DNA from: a virus
Lineage: Duplodnaviria > Heunggongvirae > Uroviricota > Caudoviricetes
Virus record (IMG/VR): IMGVR_UViG_2681813263_000008
Reading direction: 5' to 3' (one strand)
Length of the DNA: 10,906 nt
In this document: in pieces, positions 1 to 10,906 of the stretch
How the letters are laid out: every line of letters starts with the position of its first letter
How positions within the stretch are numbered: position 1 is the first letter of the stretch
Program-made: the position numbers and the translations under genes
Notes under the pieces: generated by a model
What the model was told of the DNA's origin: nothing
Seen by the model: the letters and a program-made list of their open reading frames with translations, nothing else
The model's database searches: none

Positions 1-1
1 G

Positions 2-109
2 GCGAATTACCGTCTTATATCACTGGCGCTGACATCTCCGGATGACGGGGGCAGCTGTTATCTCTGGCTCAACCGTGGGCAACCACCCGCAGTTAACCGG
101 CGACGATAA
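2..109 (+). CDS. FII: 3' fragment of head-tail joining protein (lambda FII-like); start lies upstream of window
   Basis: Frame-2 reading from position 2 is open to TAA at 107-109 and ends ...SPDDGGSCYLWLNRGQPPAVNRRR, matching the lambda gpFII C-terminus as I recall it. It sits immediately upstream of Z, as in lambda. Confidence 0.55.
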   Translation, partial: ANYRLISLALTSPDDGGSCYLWLNRGQPPAVNRRR

Positions 110-123
110 ACGCAGGGTGAATT

Positions 124-699
124 ATGGCGATAAAAGGGCTTGATCAGGCGATTGACAATCTGAGCCGGGTTCGTAAAAACGCCATTCCGGCTGCTTCTGC
201 AATGACCATTAACCGCGTGGCCACAACGGCGATTAATCAGTCTTCGTCACAGGTTGCCCGGGAAACCAGGGTGAGACGGAAACTGGTAAAGGAACGGTCC
301 AGACTGAAACGGGCGACGGTCAGAAATCCGAATGCCAGAATTATCGTTAACCGCGGTGATCTCCCTGTGATTAAGCTGGGGATCAGAATGCTGGGGCGTC
401 GTCCGAACAGCATACTCAAAGCCGGTCAGCATCGTTATCAGCGGGCATTTATCCAGCGATTAAATAATGGGCGCTGGCATGTTATGCAACGTCTTCCCCA
501 GGCCAGATATGAGGAGGGCAATGACGACAAGGGAAGGAAAAAGCGTAATCGCCTTCCCATTCAGGTGGTGAAAATCCCGATGGCGGCCCCACTGAAACAG
601 GCATTTGATGAGAATGTTGACCGTATCCGGCGTGAACGCCTGCCTAAAGAACTGGCATACGCGCTGAAACAACAACTGAGGATTGCGATAAAACGATGA
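124..699 (+). CDS. Z: tail completion protein (lambda gpZ-like)
   Basis: 191-aa ORF beginning MAIKGLDQAIDNLSR... and ending ...[22 protein letters not shown], very similar to lambda gpZ (192 aa) in sequence and length. Its stop overlaps the U start as ATGA at 696-699. Confidence 0.9.
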   Translation: MAIKGLDQAIDNLSRVRKNAIPAASAMTINRVATTAINQSSSQVARETRVRRKLVKERSRLKRATVRNPNARIIVNRGDLPVIKLGIRMLGRRPNSILKAGQHRYQRAFIQRLNNGRWHVMQRLPQARYEEGNDDKGRKKRNRLPIQVVKIPMAAPLKQAFDENVDRIRRERLPKELAYALKQQLRIAIKR

Positions 700-1091
700 A
701 ACACACTGACATTCGTGCCGCAGTGCTGGATGCACTCGAGCAGCATGAACACGGGGCGACGCTGTTTGATGGTCGCCCCGTTGTTTTTGACGAAGAGGAT
801 TTTCCTGCGATCGCGGTTTATCTGACGGATGCAGAGTATACCGGTGAAGAGCTGGATGCAGATACCTGGCGGGCCACACTGCATATTGAGGTGTTTTTAC
901 CGGCACAGGTACCTGATTCGGAGCTCGATCAGTGGATGGAAAGCCGGATTTATCCGGCGATGACTGCGATCCCTGCACTGGCAGGACTGATTACCACGAT
1001 GGTTACGCAGGGCTATGAGTATCGTCGTGATGACGATATGGCGTTATGGAGCTCTGCGGATCTGACTTATTCCATTACATACGAGATGTGA
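696..1091 (+). CDS. U: tail terminator protein (lambda gpU-like)
   Basis: 131-aa [31 protein letters not shown]...[13 protein letters not shown], near-identical in length and sequence to lambda gpU (131 aa). The start is coupled to the Z stop; GAGGA lies upstream of the following V. Confidence 0.92.
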
Positions 1092-1098
1092 GGACGAT

Positions 1099-1851
1099 AT
1101 GGCAACACCAAATCCCCTGGAGCCGGTAAAAGGTGCCGGTACCACTCTGTGGGTTTACAACGGCAAGGCTGATGCTTATGCAAACCCGTTGTCAGACGAT
1201 GACTGGCAGCGACTGGCTAAGGTGAAGGATCTGACGCCGGGCGAGATGACGGCTGAATCCTATGATGATAACTACCTGGATGATGAAGACGCGGACTGGA
1301 GCGCGACCGGGCAGGGGCAGAAATCTGCAGGTGATACCAGTTTTACGCTGGCCTGGAAACCGGGAGAGGAAGGCCAGAAAGGGCTTATAGGCTGGTTTGA
1401 AAGCGGCGATGTCCGGGCCTATAAAATCCGTTTTCCGAATGGCACGGTGGATGTGTTTCGTGGCTGGGTCAGCAGTATCGGTAAGGCCGTGACGGCGAAA
1501 GAAGTGATCACCCGCACGGTGAAAGTCACTAACGTGGGTAAACCTTCTGTAGCGGAAGAACGCAGCAAAATTACGCCGGTCAGTGCGATTAAGGTGACGC
1601 CGACATCCGGTACGGTGGCAAAAGGGAAAACAACCACCCTGACGGTTTCTTTTGAGCCGGAAAGTGCAACCGACAAGACGTTCAGAGCGGTTTCCGCCGA
1701 TCCGTCGAAAGCCACCATTAGTGTGAAAGATATGACAATTACGGTAAACGGCGTGGCGACAGGTAAGGTGCAGATCCCTGTGGTGAGCGGAAATGGTCAG
1801 TTCGCCGCAGTGGCTGAAGTCACCGTTACTGAAGCGGGCGCTGCAGGGTAA
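1099..1851 (+). CDS. V: major tail tube protein with C-terminal Ig-like (Big_2-type) domain (lambda gpV-like)
   Basis: 250-aa ORF containing [33 protein letters not shown] and [39 protein letters not shown], all hallmark gpV stretches. The C-terminal ~90 aa (TLTVSFEPE...[12 protein letters not shown]) resembles the gpV Ig-like domain. A GAGG RBS precedes the ATG. Confidence 0.93.
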
Positions 1852-1864
1852 ACGGAGGTAATAC

Positions 1865-2296
1865 ATGTTTCTGAAAACAGAACAATTTGAATATAACGGT
1901 GTGTCTGTCACGCTTTCCGAATTGTCTGCGCTGCAGCGTATCGAGCATCTTGCCCTCCTGAAACGGCGTGCAGAACAGGCAGAATCCAGCGGCAACCTGC
2001 AGGTAAGCGTGGAAGATCTCGTCAGAACCGGCGCGTTTCTGGTGGCGATGTCCCTGTGGCATAACCATCCACAGAAAACGCAGTCACCGTCAATGAATGA
2101 GGCCGTGATGAAGATAGAGCAGGAAGTGCTCACCACCTGGCCTGCCGATGCCATTGCCCGGGCGGAAGACGTGGTGTTGTGCCTGTCCGGGATGATCGAA
2201 GCTGTTCGTCCGGATACTGATATTACTGAAGTGGCGAAAAATAACACGCTGACTGATGATGATTTTTCTGCGGGAAAGTCTTCGACGGCGAGCTGA
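1865..2296 (+). CDS. G: tail assembly chaperone (lambda gpG-like)
   Basis: 143-aa ORF MFLKTEQFEYNGVSVTLSELSALQRIEHLALLKRRAEQAES...AMSLWHNHPQKTQSPSMNEAV..., matching lambda gpG. GGAGG RBS sits 8 nt upstream. The slippery heptamer lies near its 3' end. Confidence 0.9.
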   Translation: MFLKTEQFEYNGVSVTLSELSALQRIEHLALLKRRAEQAESSGNLQVSVEDLVRTGAFLVAMSLWHNHPQKTQSPSMNEAVMKIEQEVLTTWPADAIARAEDVVLCLSGMIEAVRPDTDITEVAKNNTLTDDDFSAGKSSTAS

Positions 2297-2736
2297 ACTT
2301 TGCCCTCAGACTGGCGCGTGAGATGGGGAGACCCGACTGGCGCGCCATGCTTGCCGGGATGACATCCACCGAATATGCCGACTGGCACCGTTTTTACCGC
2401 ACGCATTATTTTCAGGATACCCAGCTGGATATGCATTTTTCCGGGCTGACGTACGCTGTACTCAGCCTGTTTTTTTGCGATCCGGATATGCATCCCTCTG
2501 ATTTCAGTCTGCTTGTCCCCCGGCATGAGGAAGAGCAGGTGGAGAGGCCGGATGAGGACAAAATGCTGATGCAGAAAGCGGCAGGACTTGCCGGAGGCGT
2601 CCGGTTCGGTGGGGACGGAGGGCGCGATATTTTATCGTCTGCGGATGTGGCGGATGTCATGGTGGATGATGCCGCATTAATGATGGCTTCAGCGGGGATT
2701 CCGGGAGGTGTGAGATATGTCCCAGCCGGTTGGTGA
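1865..2736 (+). CDS. T: tail assembly chaperone G-T fusion made by programmed -1 ribosomal frameshift at 2272-2278 (lambda gpGT-like)
   Basis: G is read in frame 2 to the heptamer G GGA AAG (2272-2278). The -1 frame (frame 1) is closed by three consecutive TGA codons (2254-2262) and opens only at 2263, then runs to TGA at 2734-2736, encoding ...VFDGELNFALRLAREMGRPDWRAMLAGMTSTEYADWHRFYRT.... Same architecture as lambda G/GT; predicted fusion ~290 aa. Confidence 0.8.
2272..2278 (+). other. slippery heptamer G GGA AAG (programmed -1 frameshift signal for G-T)
   Basis: Exact X XXY YYZ heptanucleotide in the G reading frame, the same heptamer as the lambda G/T site. It sits just where the -1 frame becomes open. 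Confidence 0.8.
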
Positions 2737-5378
2737 TCTTGTTATTGACCTGAGTCTGGATGCTGTCCGTTTCGATGAGCAGATGAGCCGGGTAAGGCGT
2801 CATTTTTCAGGTCTGGATACCGACGCCAGAAAAACCGCCAGTGCTGTTGAACAGGGCCTGAGCCGCCAGGCGCTGGCTGCACAAAAAGCCGGGATTTCCG
2901 TCGGGCAGTATAAAGCGGCCATGCGAACCCTGCCCGCACAGTTTACGGATATCGCCACGCAGCTTGCCGGTGGTCAGAATCCCTGGCTGATCCTGCTGCA
3001 ACAGGGCGGTCAGGTGAAGGACTCCTTCGGCGGGATGATCCCCATGTTCAGGGGGCTTGCCGATGCGATCACCCTGCCGATGGTCGGGGTCACCTCGCTG
3101 GCGGTGGCGACAGGTGCACTGGTGTACGCCTGGTACCAGGGAGATTCCACGCTTTCAGCGTTTAATAAAACCCTGGTTCTTTCCGGTAATCAGTCCGGAC
3201 TGACTGCCGATCGTATGCTGACTCTCTCAAGAGCCGGGCAGGCAGCAGGGCTGACGTTTAACCAGGCGAGAGAGTCACTGGCAGCCCTGGTGAATGCCGG
3301 TGTGCGTGGTGGTGAACAGTTTGATGCCATCAACCAGAGTGTCGCGCGTTTTGCGTCTGCATCCGGTGTGGAGGTGGATAAAGTCGCTGAAGCCTTCGGG
3401 AAGCTGACCACTGACCCGACGTCGGGACTGATGGCGATGGCGCGCCAGTTCCGTAACGTGACGGCAGAGCAGATTGCGTATGTTGCACAGCTGCAGCGTT
3501 CCGGAGACGAGGCCGGGGCATTGCAGGCGGCGAACGATATCGCCACGAAAGGCTTTGATGAGCAGACCCGTCGCCTGAAAGAAAACATGGGAACACTGGA
3601 GACCTGGGCGGATAAAACAGGGAAGGCATTCAAATCGATGTGGGATGCCATTCTGGATATCGGTCGTCCGGAATCCTCAGCGGATATGCTCGCCAGTGCG
3701 CAGAAGGCATTTGATGAGGCGGATAAAAAATGGCAGTGGTACCAGAGTCGGAGCCAGCGCCGCGGTAAAACCTCCTCTTTCCGGGCCAACCTTCAGGGCG
3801 CATGGGATGACCGGGAAAATGCCCGTCTGGGTCTGGCAGCGGCAACGCTGCAGTCGGATATGGAAAAAGCCGGTGAACTGGCGGCAAGGGACAGGGCTGA
3901 GCGTGAGTCGTCACAGCTGAAGTATACCGGAGAGGCGCAGAAGGCGTATGAGCGCCTGCTGACGCCACTGGAGAAATATACCGCCCGNNNNNNNNNNNNN
4001 NNNNNNNNNNNNNNNNNNNNNNNNNNNNNNNNNNNNNNNNNNNNNNNNNNNNNNNNNNNNNNNNNNNNNNNNNNNNNNNNNNNNNNNNNNNNNNNNNNNN
4101 NNNNNNNNNNNNNNNNNNNNNNNNNNNNNNNNNNNNNNNNNNNNNNNNNNNNNNNNNNNNNNNNNNNNNNNNNNNNNNNNNNNNNNNNNNNNNNNNNNNN
4201 NNNNNNNNNNNNNNNNNNNNNNNNNNNNNNNNNNNNNNNNNNNNNNNNNNNNNNNNNNNNNNNNNNNNNNNNNNNNNNNNNNNNNTGCGAATGAAAAAAT
4301 CAGCCAGCAGCGCCGTGATTTATGGAAAGCGGAAAATCAGTATGTGGTCCTGAAAGAGGCCGCCACGAAACGGCAGTTATCTGAGCAGGAAAAATCCCTG
4401 CTGGCCCATGAGAAAGAAACGCTGGAGTACAAACGCCAGCTGGCTGAGCTGGGCGACAAGATTGAACACCAGAAACGGCTGAATGAGCTGGCACAGCAGG
4501 CGGCGCGGTTTGAACAGCAGCAGAGCGCGAAGCAGGCGGCAATCAGCGCAAAAGCCCGCGGACTCACCGACCGTCAGGCGCAGCGGGAGTCGGAAGAGCA
4601 GCGCCTTCGTGAGGTGTACGGTGATAATCCGGCTGCGCTGGCGAAGGCCACATCTGCACTGAAGAACACCTGGTCTGCGGAGGAGCAGCTTCGTGGAAGC
4701 TGGATGGCCGGGATGAAGTCCGGCTGGGGCGAGTGGGCGGAAAGTGCGACGGACAGTTTTTCGCAGGTTAAAAACGCGGCCACGCAGACCTTTGACGGTA
4801 TTGCACAGAATATGGCAGCGATGCTGATCGGCAGCGAACAGAACTGGCGTGGTTTCACCCGTTCTGTGCTGTCCATGCTGACAGAGATTTTTCTGAAGCA
4901 GGCGATGGTGGGGATAGTCGGGAGTATCGGCAGCGCCATTGGCGGTGCTTTCGGTGGTGGTGCGTCTGCCTCCACGGGGACGGCCATTCAGGCTGCGGCG
5001 GCGAACTTCCATTTCGCGACCGGGGGATTTACGGGGACGGGGGGTAAATATGAACCTGCGGGGATTGTTCATCGCGGGGAGTTTGTCTTCACGAAGGAGG
5101 CGACCAGCCGGATTGGTGTCGGCAATCTGTACCGCCTGATGCGGGGCTATGCGGAAGGTGGTTATGTCGGCGGTGCCGGAAGTCCGGCGCAGATGCGGCG
5201 GGCGGAAGGCATTAATTTTAATCAGAACAATCACGTGGTGATTCAGAACGACGGCCCCAACGGGCGGGCAGGGCCGCAGCTGATGAAAGCGGTGTATGAG
5301 ATGGCCCGCAAGGGGGCACAGGATGAACTCCGGCTGCAGTTGCGTGATGGCGGTATGTTATCAGGGAGCGGTGGATGA
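2717..5378 (+). CDS. H: tail tape measure protein (lambda gpH-like); interrupted by a 298-nt N-run with a +1 frame offset across it
   Basis: N-terminal part (2717-3987, frame 2) MSQPVGDLVIDLSLDAVRFDEQMSRVRRHFSG...QKAYERLLTPLEKYTA and C-terminal part (4287-5378, frame 0) ANEKISQQRRDLWKAENQYVVLKEAATKRQLS...AIQAAAANFHFATGGFTGTGGKYEPAGIVHRGEFVFTKEATSRIGVGNLYRLMRGYA... both match lambda gpH. GGGAGGTG RBS precedes the start; the start overlaps the T stop by 20 nt. The frame is not continuous across 3988-4285. Confidence 0.85.
3988..4285. other. run of 298 N (unresolved or masked sequence) inside H
   Basis: Directly visible as n characters; flanked on both sides by gpH-like coding sequence in different frames. 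Confidence 0.99.
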
Positions 5379-5722
5379 AAACCTTTCGCTGGAAAGTGAA
5401 GCCGGATATGGAGGTGAACTCGCAGCCATCGGNNNNNNNNNNNNNNNNNNNGCGTGAAGTGCGTTTTGGTGACGGGTACTCACAGCGTATGGCGGCAGGG
5501 CTGAATGCTGACCTGAAAACATACAGGGTGACGCTTTCCGTGACCCGGGAGGAGGCCCGGCATCTGGAAGCGTTCCTGGCAGAGCACGGTGGCTGGAAGG
5601 CATTTTTGTGGAAGCCACCCTATGCATACCGGCAGATAAAGGTGACCTGTGCCGGGTGGTCTGCGCGGGTCGGGATGTTGCGCGTTGAGTTCAGCGCGGA
5701 GTTTAAGCAGGTGGTGAACTGA
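5375..5722 (+). CDS. M: tail tip protein (lambda gpM-like); contains a 19-nt N-run
   Basis: ORF MKTFRWKVKPDMEVNSQPS[N-run]REVRFGDGYSQRMAAGLNADLKTYRVTLSV...IKVTCAGWSARVGMLRVEFSAEFKQVVN matches lambda gpM (109 aa). Frame is continuous across the N-run. ATG overlaps the H stop (ATGA at 5375-5378). Confidence 0.88.
   Translation: MKTFRWKVKPDMEVNSQPSXXXXXXXREVRFGDGYSQRMAAGLNADLKTYRVTLSVTREEARHLEAFLAEHGGWKAFLWKPPYAYRQIKVTCAGWSARVGMLRVEFSAEFKQVVN
5433..5451. other. run of 19 N inside M
   Basis: Directly visible; the M reading frame is continuous across it. Confidence 0.99.
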
Positions 5723-6429
5723 TGCAGGATATTCGCGAAGAAAGTCTGAACGAGTCGGTTAAGTCAGAGCAGTCACCGCGGGTGGTACTCTGGGAAATCG
5801 ACCTGACGGTACAGGGTGGTGAGCGGTATTTTTTCTGTAATGAGCTGAATGAAAAAGGGGAGCCGGTCACCTGGCAGGGGCGTAAGTATGAGGCATACCC
5901 GATTGACGGCAGCGGCTTTGAGATGAACGGCCGGGGCAGCAGTGCCAGACCGTCGCTGACGGTGTCCAATCTGTTCGGTCTGGTCACCGGGATGGCGGAA
6001 GACCTGCAGAGTCTGGTGGGGGCCACGGTGGTCCGCCGCCGGGTGTATGCCCGTTTTCTGGATGCGGTGAATTTCGTTGCGGGCAATCCGGAGGCGNNNN
6101 NNNNNNNNNNNNNNNNNNNNNNNNNNNNNNNNNNNNNNNNNNNNNNNNNNNNNNNNNNNNNNNNNNNNNNNNNNNNNNNNNNNNNNNNNNNNNNNNNNNN
6201 NNNNNNNNNNNNNNNNNNNNNNNNNNNNNNNNNNNNNNNNNNNNNNNNNNNNNNNNNNNNNNNNNNNNNNNNNNNNNNNNNNNNNNNNNNNNNNNNNNNN
6301 NNNNNNNNNNNNNNNNNNNNNNNNNNNNNNNNNNNNNNNNNNNNNNNNNNNNNNNNNNNNNNNNNNNNNNNNNNNNNNNNNNNNNNNNNNNNNNNNNNNN
6401 NATGTCGGCAATTTTGGCGGTTTCCTTTC
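5722..6429 (+). CDS. L: tail tip protein (lambda gpL-like); 3' end and stop hidden in N-runs
   Basis: N-terminal part (5722-6096, frame 1) MQDIREESLNE...VVLWEIDLT..GGERYFFCNE.NEKGEPVTWQGR.Y..YPI.GSGFE.NG...RPSLTVSNLFGLVTGMAEDLQSLVGATVVRRRVYARFLDAVNFV matches lambda gpL. An isolated island 6402-6429 encodes (N)VGNFGGFLS, the gpL C-terminal motif, but in frame 2. Start overlaps the M stop (TGATG). Confidence 0.8.
6097..6401. other. run of 305 N inside L
   Basis: Directly visible; separates the gpL N-terminal part from the 28-nt gpL C-terminal island. Confidence 0.99.
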
Positions 6430-6701
6430 NNNNNNNNNNNNNNNNNNNNNNNNNNNNNNNNNNNNNNNNNNNNNNNNNNNNNNNNNNNNNNNNNNNNNNN
6501 NNNNNNNNNNNNNNNNNNNNNNNNNNNNNNNNNNNNNNNNNNNNNNNNNNNNNNNNNNNNNNNNNNNNNNNNNNNNNNNNNNNNNNNNNNNNNNNNNNNN
6601 NNNNNNNNNNNNNNNNNNNNNNNNNNNNNNNNNNNNNNNNNNNNNNNNNNNNNNNNNNNNNNNNNNNNNNNNNNNNNNNNNNNNNNNNNNNNNNNNNNNN
6701 N
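6430..6701. other. run of 272 N covering L 3' end, L-K junction and K 5' end
   Basis: Directly visible. Confidence 0.99.
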
Positions 6702-7244
6702 CCTGGCTGAGCGAGGCTGACCGGCGGNNNNNNNNNNNNNNNNNNNNNNNNNNNNNNNNNNNNNNNNNNNNNNNNNNNNNNNNNNNNNNNNNNNNNNNNN
6801 NNNNNNNNNNNNNNNNNNNNNNNNNNNNNNNNNNNNNNNNNNNNNNNNNNNNNNNNNNNNNNNNNNNNNCTGTTCCGGGATGCTTATCATCTGGCGGGGA
6901 CTGAAATGCCGGATTTTCATCGCGAGGATGACTGGTGGCGCAACGGTCAGAACCTTTACCTGGACAATATGGCGGTCACCGGCTTTTACCGGGTGCCCCT
7001 GTCCTCTGCACAGGCGGGCGATATTCTGCTGTGCTGCTTTGGTGCTTCGGTACCGAACCATGCCGCCATTTACTGCGGCAACGGTGAGCTGCTTCACCAT
7101 CTGCCTGAACAACTGAGTAAACGGGAGAGGTATTCCGAAAAATGGCAACGACGAACGCATTCAGTCTGGCGTCACCGCCACTGGCACGCATCTGCCTTCA
7201 CGGGGATTTACAACGATTTGGCCGCCGCCTCAGCCTGTATGTGA
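6702..7244 (+). CDS. K: tail tip assembly protein (lambda gpK-like); 5' end hidden in N-runs, visible in two pieces
   Basis: Island 6702-6727 encodes WLSEADRR (frame 2). The segment 6870-7244 (frame 0) encodes LFRDAYHLAGTEMPDFHREDDWWRNGQNLYLDNMAVTGFYRVPL...GDILLCCFGASVPNHAAIYCGNGELLHHLPEQLSKRERYSEKWQRRTHSVWRHRHW..., consistent with the gpK C-terminal region. Stop TGA at 7242-7244 lies 103 nt inside I, the same K/I overlap length as in lambda. Confidence 0.75.
6728..6869. other. run of 142 N inside K
   Basis: Directly visible; the K-like islands on either side are in different frames. Confidence 0.99.
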
Positions 7245-7646
7245 ACACGGCAGCGGAAGCCATTCGCGCCCTGTCGATGCAGATGCCGGGCTTTCGCCGT
7301 CAGATGAACGAAGGCTGGTACCAGATACGTATTGCCGGTTATGACACGGCACCGGAGGCGGTGTACGCCCGTCTTCACGAACAGCTGGGTGAGGGAACGG
7401 TCATCCACATTGTGCCGCGACTGGCCGGGGCCGGAAAGGGTGGACTGCAGATTGTGCTGGGGGCGGCAGCCATCGTGGGCTCTTTCTTCACTGCCGGGGC
7501 ATCAATGGCGTTATGGGGTTCAGCCCTGGCAGCCGGTGGTTTTTCTGCCACCACGATGCTGTTTTCACTTGGAGCCAGCATGATTCTGGGCGGTGTGGCC
7601 CAGATGCTGGCCCCGAAGGCAAAAACACCGGATTACCGCGCAACGG
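7142..7646 (+). CDS. I: tail tip assembly protein (lambda gpI-like); 3' end hidden in the 615-nt N-run
   Basis: ORF MATTNAFSLASPPLARICLHGDLQRFGRRLSLYVNTAAEAIRAL...WYQIRIAGYD...VIHIVPRLAGAGKGGLQIVLGAAAIVGSFFTAGA...FSLGASMILGGVAQMLAPKAKTP, clearly gpI-like. GAGAGG RBS precedes the start. It begins inside the K 3' end in a different frame. Confidence 0.85.
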
Positions 7647-8261
7647 NNNNNNNNNNNNNNNNNNNNNNNNNNNNNNNNNNNNNNNNNNNNNNNNNNNNNN
7701 NNNNNNNNNNNNNNNNNNNNNNNNNNNNNNNNNNNNNNNNNNNNNNNNNNNNNNNNNNNNNNNNNNNNNNNNNNNNNNNNNNNNNNNNNNNNNNNNNNNN
7801 NNNNNNNNNNNNNNNNNNNNNNNNNNNNNNNNNNNNNNNNNNNNNNNNNNNNNNNNNNNNNNNNNNNNNNNNNNNNNNNNNNNNNNNNNNNNNNNNNNNN
7901 NNNNNNNNNNNNNNNNNNNNNNNNNNNNNNNNNNNNNNNNNNNNNNNNNNNNNNNNNNNNNNNNNNNNNNNNNNNNNNNNNNNNNNNNNNNNNNNNNNNN
8001 NNNNNNNNNNNNNNNNNNNNNNNNNNNNNNNNNNNNNNNNNNNNNNNNNNNNNNNNNNNNNNNNNNNNNNNNNNNNNNNNNNNNNNNNNNNNNNNNNNNN
8101 NNNNNNNNNNNNNNNNNNNNNNNNNNNNNNNNNNNNNNNNNNNNNNNNNNNNNNNNNNNNNNNNNNNNNNNNNNNNNNNNNNNNNNNNNNNNNNNNNNNN
8201 NNNNNNNNNNNNNNNNNNNNNNNNNNNNNNNNNNNNNNNNNNNNNNNNNNNNNNNNNNNNN
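7647..8261. other. run of 615 N covering I 3' end and the I-J junction
   Basis: Directly visible; only 16 nt of readable sequence (with the J RBS) separate it from the J start codon. Confidence 0.99.
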
Positions 8262-8277: not shown

Positions 8278-10906
8278 ATGGGAAAAGGTGGCGGTAAGGC
8301 ACACACGCCTCGTGAGGCGAAGGATAATCTCAAATCCACGCAGATGATGAGCGTGATTGATGCGATTGGTGAGGGACCGATAGAAGGTCCGGTGAAGGGA
8401 CTGCAGAGTATCCTGGTGAACAAAACCCCGCTGACGGACACGGACGGTAATCCCGTGATACACGGTGTGACGGCGGTCTGACGCGCCGGGGAGCAGGAGC
8501 AGACACCACCGGAAGGCTTTGAGTCCTCCGGTGCTGAAACCGGACTGGGCGTGGAAGTGACGAAGGCAAAACCGGTGACGCGCACCATTACGTCCGCGAA
8601 CATTGACCGCCTGCGGGTTACCTTCGGGGTGCAGTCACTGGTGCAGACCACGTCAAAGGGTGACCGAAACCCGACATCCGTCCGCCTGCTGATTCAGTTA
8701 CAGCGTAACGGTAACTGGGTGACAGAAAAGGATGTCACCATTAACGGCAAGACCACCTCGCAGTTTCTGGCGTCGGTGATTCTGGATAATCTGCCTCCCC
8801 GTCCTTTTAACATCCGGATGGTCCGGGAGACAGCGGACAGCACCACGGACCAGCTGCAGAATAAGACGCTGTGGTCGTCATACACCGAAATCATCGATGT
8901 GAAACAGTGCTACCCGAACACGGCCATTGTGGGGCTGCAGGTGGATGCGGAGCAGTTCGGCGGCCAGCAGATGACGGTGAACTACCATATCCGCGGTCGC
9001 ATCATCCAGGTGCCGTCAAACTATGACCCGGAAAAACGCACGTACAGTGGTATCTGGGACGGCAGCCTGAAACCGGCATACAGCAACAATCCGGCCTGGT
9101 GTCTGTGGGACATGCTGACTCACCCGCGCTACGGCATGGGAAAACGTCTGGGGGCGGCGGATGTGGACAAGTGGGCGCTGTATGCCATCGGGCAGTACTG
9201 CGACCAGACGGTCCCGGATGGTTTCGGGGAGACCGAGCCGCGGATGACCTTCAATGCGTACCTGGCACAACAGCGTAAGGCATGGGACGTGCTCAGTGAT
9301 TTCTGCTCGGCGATGCGCTGTATGCCGGTATGGAACGGCCAGACGCTGACGTTTGTTCAGGACCGCCCGTCGGATGTGGTGTGGCCGTACACCAACAGCG
9401 ATGTGGTGGTGGATGATAACGGCGTGGGTTTCCGCTACAGCTTCAGTGCCCTGAAGGACCGGCACACGGCGGTGGAGGTGAATTATACCGACCCGCAGAA
9501 CGGCTGGCAGACCTCCACGGAACTGGTGGAAGACCCGGAAGCCATACTGCGCTACGGACGCAACCTGCTGAAGATGGACGCGTTCGGCTGTACCAGCCGC
9601 GGTCAGGCCCACCGTGCCGGACTGTGGGTGATAAAGACCGAACTGCTGGAAACGCAGACGGTGGATTTCACGCTCGGGTCTCAGGGGCTGCGGCACACAC
9701 CCGGTGACATCATTGAAATCTGTGATAACGACTATGCCGGGACCCTGACCGGCGGACGTGTCCTGTCCATTGATGCTGCCACCCGCACTCTGACGCTGGA
9801 CCGTGAAGTGACACTTCCGGAGACCGGTGCCGCCACGGTGAACCTGATTAACGGCAGCGGTAAGCCGGTGAGTGTGGACATCACCGAACACCCCGCGCCG
9901 GACCGGATACAGGTCAGTACCCTGCCTGATGGTGTGGAGACATACGGGGTGTGGGGACTCTCCCTGCCGTCACTGCGCCGTCGCCTGTTCCGCTGTGTCT
10001 CCGTCCGGGAAAACACGGACGGCACCTTTGCCATCACGGCGGTGCAGCACGTACTGGAAAAAGAAGCCATCGTGGATAACGGTGCCCGCTTTGAGCCGCA
10101 GTCAGGTTCCCTGAACAGCGTCATCCCACCGGCAGTGCAGCACCTGACGGCCAGTATCTGGCGCAGGCGAAATGGGACACGCCGCGGGTGGTGAAGGGTG
10201 TGCGCTTCAGTCTGCGCCTGACCAGTGGTAAGGGAACGGATGCCAGACTGGTGACCACCGCCATCACCGCAGACACGGAGCACCGTTTCAGCGGCCTGCC
10301 GCTCGGGGAATACACCCTGACGGTGCGGGCGATAAACAGCTATGGCCAGCAGGGTGAACCTGCCACCACCACCTTCCGGATTGCCGCACCGGCAGCACCG
10401 TCGCGGATTGAGCTGACGTCGGGCTATTTTCAGATAACCGCAACGCCGCATCTTGCCGTTTATGACCCGACGGTACAGTTTGAGTTCTGGTTCTCGGAAA
10501 AGCGGATTGCGGATATCAGGCAGGTTGAAACCACAGCACGCTATCTTGGCACGGCGCTGTACTGGATAGCCGCCAGTATCAATATCAAACCGGGCCATGA
10601 TTATTATTTTTACGTTCGCAGTGTGAACACCGTTGGCAAATCGGCATTCGTGGAGGCTGTCGGTCGGGCGAGCGATGATGCGGAAGGTTACCTGGATTTT
10701 TTCAAAGGAGAGATAGGGAAAACACATCTGGCTCAGGAGCTGTGGACGCAGATTGATAACGGTCAGCTTGCGCCTGACCTGGCTGAAATCAGGACGTCCA
10801 TTACGGATGTCAGCAATGAAATCACGCAGACCGTCAATAAGAAACTGGAAGACCAGAGTGCGGCAATTCAGCAGATACAGAAGGTTCAGGTTGATACAAA
10901 TAATAA
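8278..10906 (+). pseudogene. J: host specificity / central tail fibre protein (lambda gpJ-like), 3'-truncated by window end; as written it is interrupted by an in-frame TGA (8479-8481) and a frameshift near 10152
   Basis: Three collinear J-like segments. (1) 8278-8478, frame 1: MGKGGGKAHTPREAKDNLKSTQMMSVIDAIGEGPIEGPVKGL...IHGVTAV, then TGA. (2) 8482-10191, same frame: RAGEQEQTPPEGFESSG...TRTITSANIDRLRVTFGVQ...KQCYPNTAIVGLQVD...PAWCLWDMLTHPRYGMGKRLGAADVDKWALY...CTSRGQAHRAGLW...PPAVQHLTA. (3) 10152-10906, frame 0, open to window end: [24 protein letters not shown]...[35 protein letters not shown]...[44 protein letters not shown].... AGGGGAAGG RBS precedes the ATG. The type could equally be CDS if the two lesions are sequencing errors. 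Confidence 0.8.

What the first reader, a model, noticed from the sequence alone, without database searches (positions are those of the whole stretch)
3988..8261. Six N-runs inside tail genes, each with frame or length inconsistencies
N-runs of 298, 19, 305, 272, 142 and 615 nt sit inside H, M, L, L/K, K and I/J. For H (frame 2 before, frame 0 after), L (frame 1 then frame 2) and K (frame 2 then frame 0) the flanking homologous pieces are each offset by +1, so no N-run length that is a multiple of 3 restores the frame. Compared with lambda gene lengths (from memory) every N-containing interval is also longer: H by about 100 nt, M by 18 nt, L start to K end by about 76 nt. Consistent +1 offsets suggest that gap lengths are estimates or systematically off by one, not that three genes happen to be frameshifted; genuine disruption cannot be excluded. 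Integrity of H, L, K and I cannot be judged from this sequence.
Basis: seen in the sequence. Interest (0 to 1): 0.45.

Follow-up and report, generated by a model that had tools for sequence, protein, structure and literature searches.

The report
Mis-sized assembly gaps in prophage tail genes
The six N-runs are unresolved scaffold gaps with overestimated lengths in a public short-read draft genome, so the frameshifts in tail genes H, L and K are artefacts, while the real damage to this prophage (a broken J gene and an insertion-sequence cut in FII) lies outside the gaps.

Summary
There are six N-runs of 298, 19, 305, 272, 142 and 615 nt, at the stated coordinates, in H, M, L, L/K, K and I/I-J spacer, with the stated frame offsets and excess lengths over lambda.

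The window is the whole public record CXDG01000132.1 (assembly GCA_001252135.1), so the Ns belong to the deposited draft scaffold. Eleven to fourteen sibling contigs have flanks 100% identical right up to each N boundary. In all of them each interval has one identical sequence, of 210, 1, 274, 255, 120 and 503 nt. The N-runs are therefore too long by 88, 18, 31, 17, 22 and 112 nt (mod 3 = 1,0,1,2,1,1). They are size estimates, not off-by-one errors.

Filling the gaps from the siblings gives a 10,618-nt sequence with intact H (857 aa), M (109), L (232), K (247) and I (226).

The real lesions lie elsewhere. J has a TGG>TGA stop at codon 68 and a 22-nt frameshifting deletion. FII is cut by an IS21-family element at window 34/35.

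The accession block points to the Sanger Velvet/SSPACE/GapFiller pipeline, probably Shigella sonnei, but this is circumstantial. Why the gaps fall exactly where they do is unresolved. Co-resident lambdoid paralogues are shown only at the contig's 3' end.

Verdict: an ordinary artefact.

The parts
1..34 (.). Terminal 34 nt of an IS21-family insertion sequence. It forms the contig start and a repeat boundary.
   Evidence: It is 100% identical to the IS end next to istA on S. sonnei pSS_046 and to about 2000 plasmids. Sibling contig L061 shows istB/istA directly upstream. No complete E. coli genome aligns before window 35.
35..109 (+). Remnant of head-tail joining gene FII (last 75 nt only).
   Evidence: Alignment to the L003 FII gene at 1222-1575 begins at L003 1501.
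124..2736 (+). Intact tail genes Z (124-699), U (696-1091), V (1099-1851), G (1865-2296) and T (2323-2736).
   Evidence: ORFs. Pfam families on the called genes of the record itself.
2717..5378 (+). Tape-measure gene H, interrupted by gap 1. Its true length is 2574 nt (857 aa).
3988..4285 (.). Gap 1: 298 N standing for 210 nt (excess 88, frame +1).
   Evidence: All 11 siblings carry one identical 210-nt fill.
5375..5722 (+). Gene M with gap 2 inside. Its true length is 330 nt (109 aa).
5433..5451 (.). Gap 2: 19 N standing for a single nucleotide (T). Excess 18, in frame.
   Evidence: (1 nt in 46 of 46 loci).
5722..6096 (+). 5' part of gene L. L truly spans 699 nt (232 aa) and ends inside gap 4.
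6097..6401 (.). Gap 3: 305 N standing for 274 nt (excess 31, frame +1).
6402..6429 (+). 28-nt island of L sequence between gaps 3 and 4.
   Evidence: 100% match to siblings in the expected position.
6430..6701 (.). Gap 4: 272 N standing for 255 nt (excess 17, frame +2). It hides the L stop and the K start.
6702..6727 (+). 26-nt island of K sequence between gaps 4 and 5.
6728..6869 (.). Gap 5: 142 N standing for 120 nt (excess 22, frame +1).
   Evidence: (120 nt in 36 of 36 loci).
6870..7244 (+). 3' part of gene K (JAB + NlpC/P60 peptidase). The true gene is 744 nt (247 aa).
7142..7646 (+). 5' part of gene I. The true gene is 226 aa from this ATG and ends inside gap 6.
7647..8261 (.). Gap 6: 615 N standing for 503 nt (excess 112, frame +1). 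It covers the last 176 nt of I and 327 nt of the AT-richer I-J spacer.
   Evidence: All 11 siblings carry one identical 503-nt fill.
8278..10906 (+). Gene J, a real pseudogene that runs off the contig end. It has TGG>TGA at codon 68 (8479-8481) and a 22-nt deletion between 10147 and 10148.
   Evidence: The same three-piece gene calls are seen in all siblings.
10725..10906 (+). Contig 3' end inside a 182-nt exact repeat shared with a co-resident J paralogue. The variants at 10832, 10848 and 10868 are those of a J-paralogue variant found in sister assemblies.

Best explanation
The six N-runs are unresolved intra-scaffold gaps in a deposited short-read draft assembly (record CXDG01000132.1 of GCA_001252135.1). 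The number of Ns in each is what is left of a paired-read estimate of the gap size, not the number of missing bases.

The true missing stretches are 210, 1, 274, 255, 120 and 503 nt. With these in place H, M, L, K and I are ordinary intact lambda-type tail genes. The apparent frameshifts and extra length come from the N-runs being 17-112 nt too long.

Shown: the Ns are in the public record; the true interval lengths in near-identical genomes; the intact ORFs after repair.

Inferred: the record was made with a scaffold-then-gap-fill pipeline, probably Sanger's Velvet + SSPACE + GapFiller on Shigella sonnei. In such a pipeline the edges of a gap are extended base by base, and a gap is closed only if the two extensions overlap and the insertion fits the estimate. 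The extensions would have stalled where reads were too few or ambiguous, plausibly because of co-resident lambdoid prophages.
For: (1) Source. The window is identical to the whole 10,906-nt record CXDG01000132.1, and a gene product containing X residues was called on it.

(2) True lengths. 11-14 sibling contigs from at least 9 assemblies, made by several submitters, match every flank at 100% up to the N boundary. They carry one identical fill per gap, of 210, 1, 274, 255, 120 and 503 nt. Of 30-46 more distant lambdoid loci measured at each gap, none has an interval equal to the N length.

(3) Intact genes. Pfam confirms the families.

(4) Variable gap lengths. The N lengths are all different. 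Sister records of the same accession batch (CXDK, CXDM, CXDS, CXEH) carry N-runs of 1 and 5 nt, so lengths are variable residuals and not fixed placeholders.

(5) Pipeline. Accession prefixes on both sides of CXDG (CWW*, CWZ*, CXA*, CXF*, CXG*) are listed as Sanger-pipeline Shigella sonnei assemblies in the passages shown from the supplement of PMC5320598. That pipeline scaffolds with SSPACE and then runs GapFiller. GapFiller trims gap edges, extends one base at a time by majority vote, and closes a gap only with at least 10 nt of overlap and within 50 nt of the estimated size. Its authors state that exact gap size is hard to estimate (PMC3446322).

(6) A tangled region. The contig starts 34 nt inside an IS. 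It ends at the end of a 182-nt exact repeat shared with a J paralogue and carries J-paralogue-type variants in its last 100 nt. A sister contig switches between two prophages at a 35+50-nt exact repeat.
Against: No assembly metadata (AGP, gap type, assembler, read length) could be read. CXDG itself is not in the stored, truncated part of the supplement, so the pipeline and the species are circumstantial.

The reason for the gap positions is not established. In the siblings the hidden stretches show no unusual GC, no internal repeats, no special conservation and no special divergence. Only 2 of 12 gap edges (with 29-nt context) or 3 of 12 (with 20-nt context) coincide with branch points among the lambdoid loci collected, against 5-6% background.

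All six errors are positive (probability 1/64 if the errors were symmetric). This needs a systematic bias or a selection effect that I infer but did not demonstrate.

The hidden bases of this particular isolate remain unseen.
Confidence: 0.93

Rival explanations
1. The gaps are assembly gaps, but they fall here because this isolate really differs from its siblings in these stretches. It might, for example, carry patches exchanged with a co-resident lambdoid prophage, a second nearly identical copy, or a mixed culture. The hidden sequence would then not be the sibling sequence and could include real lesions.
For: Sister isolates from the same batch assembled this region without gaps (L068, L061, L066), so something was specific to this isolate or to its data. 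Gap 2 hides exactly one base, as expected if extension from both sides stalled at one ambiguous site. The contig's last 100 nt carry J-paralogue-type variants. Both edges of gap 5 and the left edge of gap 1 are branch points among lambdoid variants.
Against: The flanks are 100% identical to the siblings right up to every boundary, and the 11-14 siblings show no variation at all inside the intervals. The base hidden by gap 2 is T in all 46 loci examined. The branch-point enrichment is weak. Low coverage or short reads would explain the isolate-specific failure equally well.
Confidence: 0.06
2. The Ns are an in-place hard mask, one N per real base. The source would then carry insertions of 88, 18, 31, 17, 22 and 112 nt, and H, L and K would really be frameshifted in a decaying prophage.
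For: The prophage is decaying elsewhere: J has a nonsense codon plus a 22-nt deletion, and FII is cut by an IS. The documentation of one collection used here says a few stretches are masked as N.
Against: No related locus has any of these interval lengths, apart from one locus with 631 vs 615 nt at the variable gap 6. Six separate insertions in a lineage whose other members are identical at every visible base is implausible. The Ns were already present in the sequence on which the collection's gene calls were made, because a gene product containing X residues is on record for it. The runs are too short for an IS.
Confidence: 0.01

Closest known systems
Estimated-size scaffold gaps left by paired-read scaffolding and gap filling (SSPACE + GapFiller type, as in the Sanger prokaryote assembly pipeline; PMC5320598, PMC3446322)
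   Same: The N-runs have variable, non-round lengths and sit inside otherwise collinear sequence. Tiny islands of sequence lie between runs. Sister records carry 1-nt and 5-nt residual gaps. The lengths disagree with the true intervals by tens of nt.
   Different: The pipeline is not documented for this record with the tools available. All six errors go in the same direction, and one true 1-nt gap is rendered as 19 N. The papers read do not specifically describe either of these.
Phage lambda tail module Z-U-V-G-T-H-M-L-K-I-J (J02459)
   Same: Same gene order and the same Pfam families. About 75-79% DNA identity to lambda. M and L have the same lengths (109 and 232 aa).
   Different: H is 857 aa vs 853. 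K is annotated as 247 aa vs 199. The I-J spacer is 343 nt vs 60. J is inactivated and FII is truncated by an IS.
Defective lambdoid prophage remnants of Shigella / E. coli (IS-disrupted, pseudogenised)
   Same: An IS21-family element abuts a truncated FII. J carries a nonsense codon and a microhomology-flanked deletion. Several lambdoid paralogues are found in the same genomes.
   Different: The middle tail genes H to I are still intact in all siblings. Host species is inferred, not shown.

Membership tests
Scaffold gap of estimated size (assembly artefact) | The N-runs are part of the deposited draft record, not of a later mask. | tested here: met
   The window equals the whole record CXDG01000132.1. 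A product containing X residues was called on it.
Scaffold gap of estimated size (assembly artefact) | The flanks are collinear and contiguous in near-identical gap-free genomes. | tested here: met
   11-14 sibling contigs have flanks 100% identical and one identical fill per gap.
Scaffold gap of estimated size (assembly artefact) | The N count is an estimate, so it need not equal the true length. | tested here: met
   298/19/305/272/142/615 N against 210/1/274/255/120/503 true nt.
Scaffold gap of estimated size (assembly artefact) | Assembly metadata (AGP gap type, scaffolder, gap filler) declare paired-end-linked gaps. | not testable with these tools
   Only circumstantial. The neighbouring accession prefixes are Sanger Velvet/SSPACE/GapFiller S. 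sonnei drafts.
In-place hard mask of determined sequence | The number of Ns equals the number of bases hidden. | tested here: not met
   No sibling or relative has intervals of these lengths. Gap 2 is 1 nt in 46 of 46 loci and gap 5 is 120 nt in 36 of 36.
Genuine frameshift pseudogenes H, L, K | The reading frame is broken in actual sequence. | tested here: not met
   The genes are intact in all siblings and in the repaired window. For this isolate's own hidden bases the test cannot be done.
Lambda-type tail module | Gene order Z-U-V-G-T-H-M-L-K-I-J with the matching protein families. | tested here: met
   Pfam families TMP_2/Tape_meas_lam_C, Phage_min_tail, Phage_tail_L, Prok-JAB+NLPC_P60, Lambda_tail_I and the GpJ domains. 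Annotated relatives. Lambda itself.
Repeat-induced assembly break (co-resident paralogues) | Gap or contig edges coincide with the ends of exact repeats shared with other loci of the same genome. | tested here: inconclusive
   Met for both contig ends: the IS at bases 1-34 and a 182-nt J repeat ending at 10906. For the six internal gaps only 2-3 of 12 edges coincide, against 5-6% background, and the source genome's own paralogues were not available.

The most novel reading that the evidence does not exclude
In this one isolate the six stretches really differ from the clone's consensus. They might be mosaic patches acquired by recombination with a co-resident lambdoid prophage, or a heteroplasmic or duplicated M-to-J region. 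That would be why assembly failed exactly there while sister isolates assembled cleanly. The Ns would then hide ongoing gene conversion between prophage tail modules.
Probability: 0.05. Interest if true: 0.15.

Novelty: not a real feature. Interest (0 to 1): 0.04.

Why it matters
It matters only as a caution. N-run lengths in short-read draft scaffolds cannot be used to judge reading frames or gene lengths. A gene caller working on this record loses or truncates H, L, K and I and reports an M protein with seven X residues. The biology is unremarkable: a lambda-type tail module of a defective prophage whose real lesions, in J and FII, are visible outside the gaps.

Tried and rejected
- Source search by exact DNA pattern. 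A window-specific 50-mer was not found in genome contigs. It occurred only in unrelated J variants in viral and metagenome contigs. The IS-FII junction was also absent from genome contigs. The source was finally found by looking up the X-containing M product.

- Hypothesis that the hidden intervals are the most conserved, repeat-collapsed parts of lambdoid tails. Rejected: sharing of 31-mers with 40 non-sibling loci is no higher in the intervals than in the flanks.

- Hypothesis that the intervals are unusually divergent patches. Rejected: 0-1.7% mismatch to L003 inside the gaps, against 0.2-3.5% in the flanks.

- Internal repeats or extreme GC in the intervals. None found; only the I-J spacer is AT-richer, at 47% GC.

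- A simple relation between N length and true length, or a constant k-mer offset. Three excesses cluster at 17-22 nt but the others are 31, 88 and 112, so there is no fit.

- 'Off by one'. Rejected.

- IS or moron insertion inside the gaps. Some distant relatives carry about 2 kb of extra genes between L and K, but the siblings do not, and the N-runs are too short.

- RNA element in the I-J spacer. No Rfam hit at gathering threshold, and no convincing ORF.

- No complete E. coli genome carries this exact lineage. The best match is 98.5%.

- The paper on gap-size estimation (Sahlin et al. 2012) is not held in the library.
Full report
**1. The observation**

The window contains exactly six N-runs, 1651 N in all: 3988-4285 (298), 5433-5451 (19), 6097-6401 (305), 6430-6701 (272), 6728-6869 (142) and 7647-8261 (615).

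The surrounding sequence is a lambda-type tail module. It aligns at 98-99% to an annotated E. coli prophage (L003, NZ_CM136153.1). There the genes are tail protein Z, U, V, G, T, tape measure, M-like tail protein, minor tail protein L, C40 peptidase (K), tail assembly protein (I) and gpJ. Phage PhiR12_5 carries the explicit lambda names. Pfam confirms H, M, L, K, I and J.

Placed on L003, the gaps fall as follows:
- Gap 1 is inside H.
- Gap 2 is inside M.
- Gap 3 is inside L.
- Gap 4 runs across the L stop and the K start.
- Gap 5 is inside K.
- Gap 6 covers the last 176 nt of I and 327 of the 343 nt of the I-J spacer.

So do the lambda comparisons, checked on J02459: H +100, M +18, L start to K end +76 nt.

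**2. Where the window comes from**

The M reading frame of the window, translated with its seven X residues, is on record for exactly one contig: CXDG01000132.1 of NCBI assembly GCA_001252135.1. That contig is 10,906 nt long and identical to the window. So the window is an entire scaffold of a public draft genome, and the Ns are in the deposited record.

**3. What the Ns stand for**

A 50-mer search of viral contigs and a look-up of the truncated 67-aa J product brought in many contigs of the same lineage. These came from at least nine assemblies by different submitters, with prefixes CXDK, CXDM, CXEH, CXDS, UEAP, CABWDP, ABGQOM, DAKIRS, ABFYAB and ABUBHL, plus IMG isolates.

Every assembled segment of the window matches these contigs at 99.9-100% without indels, right up to each N boundary. 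Across the 11-14 contigs that span a given gap there is a single, invariant fill, of 210, 1, 274, 255, 120 and 503 nt respectively.

The N-runs are therefore too long by 88, 18, 31, 17, 22 and 112 nt, with residues mod 3 of 1, 0, 1, 2, 1, 1. Among 30-46 more distant lambdoid loci no interval equals the N length either. Gap 2 is 1 nt in 46 of 46 loci and gap 5 is 120 nt in 36 of 36.

Replacing the Ns by the sibling fills gives 10,618 nt with H 857 aa, M 109, L 232, K 247 and I 226. These are the lengths called in all siblings and, for H, M, L and K, annotated in L003, where I is annotated from a later start. The frameshifts and extra lengths are thus produced by mis-sized gaps.

'Off by one' is not the explanation. 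The errors are tens of nucleotides. The +1 pattern (4 of 6) has a binomial probability of about 0.1.

**4. How the gaps probably arose (inferred)**

The N lengths are all different. Sister records of the same accession batch contain residual gaps of 1 and 5 N. That fits a scaffolder that writes an estimated gap, followed by a gap filler that eats into it.

In the passages shown from the supplement of Page et al. 2016, accession prefixes on both sides of CXDG (CWW*, CWZ*, CXA*, CXF*, CXG*) are Shigella sonnei assemblies made with the Sanger pipeline. CXDG itself is not in the stored, truncated part. [quoted passage not shown]

GapFiller works as follows (PMC3446322):
- It trims 10 nt at the gap edges.
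- It extends from each edge one base at a time, with a coverage minimum and a 0.7 majority vote.
- It closes a gap only if the extensions overlap by at least 10 nt and the insertion is within 50 nt of the estimate.
- Its authors note that exact gap sizes are hard to estimate and that correct closures can be rejected for that reason.

Under this mechanism each N boundary is a point where extension stalled. Gap 2, with one hidden base, is a site that neither extension could call.

All six errors are positive (1/64 under symmetric error). This suggests a biased estimate or a selection effect. I did not demonstrate either.

**5. Why there?**

This is unresolved. In the siblings the hidden stretches are not more conserved, not more divergent, not repetitive and not compositionally odd.

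The region is nevertheless demonstrably hard to assemble:
- The contig begins 34 nt inside an IS21-family element.
- It ends exactly at the end of a 182-nt exact repeat shared with a co-resident J paralogue, and over its last 100 nt it carries the variants of a J-paralogue type seen in sister assemblies.
- Sister contig CXDS01000053.1 switches from a second, lambda-like prophage to this one at a 35+50-nt exact repeat at the end of H.
- Another sibling contig ends inside that same repeat.

For the six internal gaps, only 2 of 12 edges (29-nt context) or 3 of 12 (20-nt context) are branch points among the lambdoid loci collected, against 5-6% background. That is suggestive at best. The source genome's own paralogues and reads were not available.

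**6. What is really wrong with this prophage**

Outside the gaps, J carries TGG>TGA at codon 68 (window 8479-8481). It also has a 22-nt deletion between 10147 and 10148, flanked by the direct repeat CTGACGG, which shifts the frame. Both lesions are present in all siblings, where J is called as 67-, 547- and ~510-aa pieces.

FII is reduced to its last 75 nt by the IS21-family element at 34/35.

The 67-aa J product is on record in 146 blocks of the collection but never on a contig longer than 50 kb. No complete E. coli genome has this lineage; the best match is 98.5%. This is consistent with an IS-rich Shigella-type host known here only from drafts.

**7. Verdict**

The finding is accurately observed and correctly interpreted in its main point. 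It is an assembly artefact and not a biological feature. Nothing about it is novel. Its value is as a warning against reading frames across N-runs.

Noticed in passing
window 1-109: The contig starts with the terminal 34 nt of an IS21-family element. It is 100% identical to the IS end beside istA on S. sonnei pSS_046, and sibling CXEH01000067.1 shows istB/istA directly upstream. The element abuts the last 75 nt of FII, so the tail module is cut off from its head genes, or separated from them.
   Followed up: yes
window 8278-10906: J is a genuine pseudogene. It has TGG>TGA at codon 68 (8479-8481) and a 22-nt deletion at 10147/10148 between CTGACGG direct repeats. Both lesions are shared by all sibling assemblies.
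   Followed up: yes
window 10725-10906: The contig ends exactly at the end of a 182-nt exact repeat shared with a co-resident J paralogue. Positions 10832, 10848 and 10868 carry J-paralogue-type bases (as in the L062 and L068 tails), so the 3' end is a collapsed or chimeric consensus. Position 10419 (T) is matched by neither the siblings nor the paralogues.
   Followed up: partly
L062 (CXDS01000053.1) 1-7160; L066 (CXDM01000046.1) 1-2006: Sister genomes hold a second, lambda-like prophage with H of 852-853 aa, whose H 3' end, M and L are about 78-84% identical to this one. One sister contig jumps from it into this prophage at a 35+50-nt exact repeat (proxy 5081-5166). Whether this is a misassembly or a real recombinant is open.
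   Followed up: partly
L041/L066 position 462/2007 and 12034/13579; L068 10544; L062 12593-12597: Single-N and 5-N gaps in sister scaffolds join sequences from different prophages (L of prophage C to the IS end; J to a J paralogue). Scaffold joins in this batch are therefore not reliable evidence of adjacency.
   Followed up: no
window 7647-8261 (siblings: L041 8113-8455): The I-J spacer is 343 nt here, against 60 nt in lambda, and it is AT-richer (47% GC over the gap-6 fill, which includes it). Its length varies widely among lambdoid loci (interval 214-631 nt). There is no Rfam hit and no convincing ORF. A promoter-like site scoring 11/12 lies on the minus strand.
   Followed up: partly
window 4946-4982 and 7633-7642: Mismatches to the 98% relative L003 are clustered in short patches. 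These look like mosaic or gene-conversion tracts typical of lambdoid tails. One patch directly abuts the left edge of gap 6.
   Followed up: no
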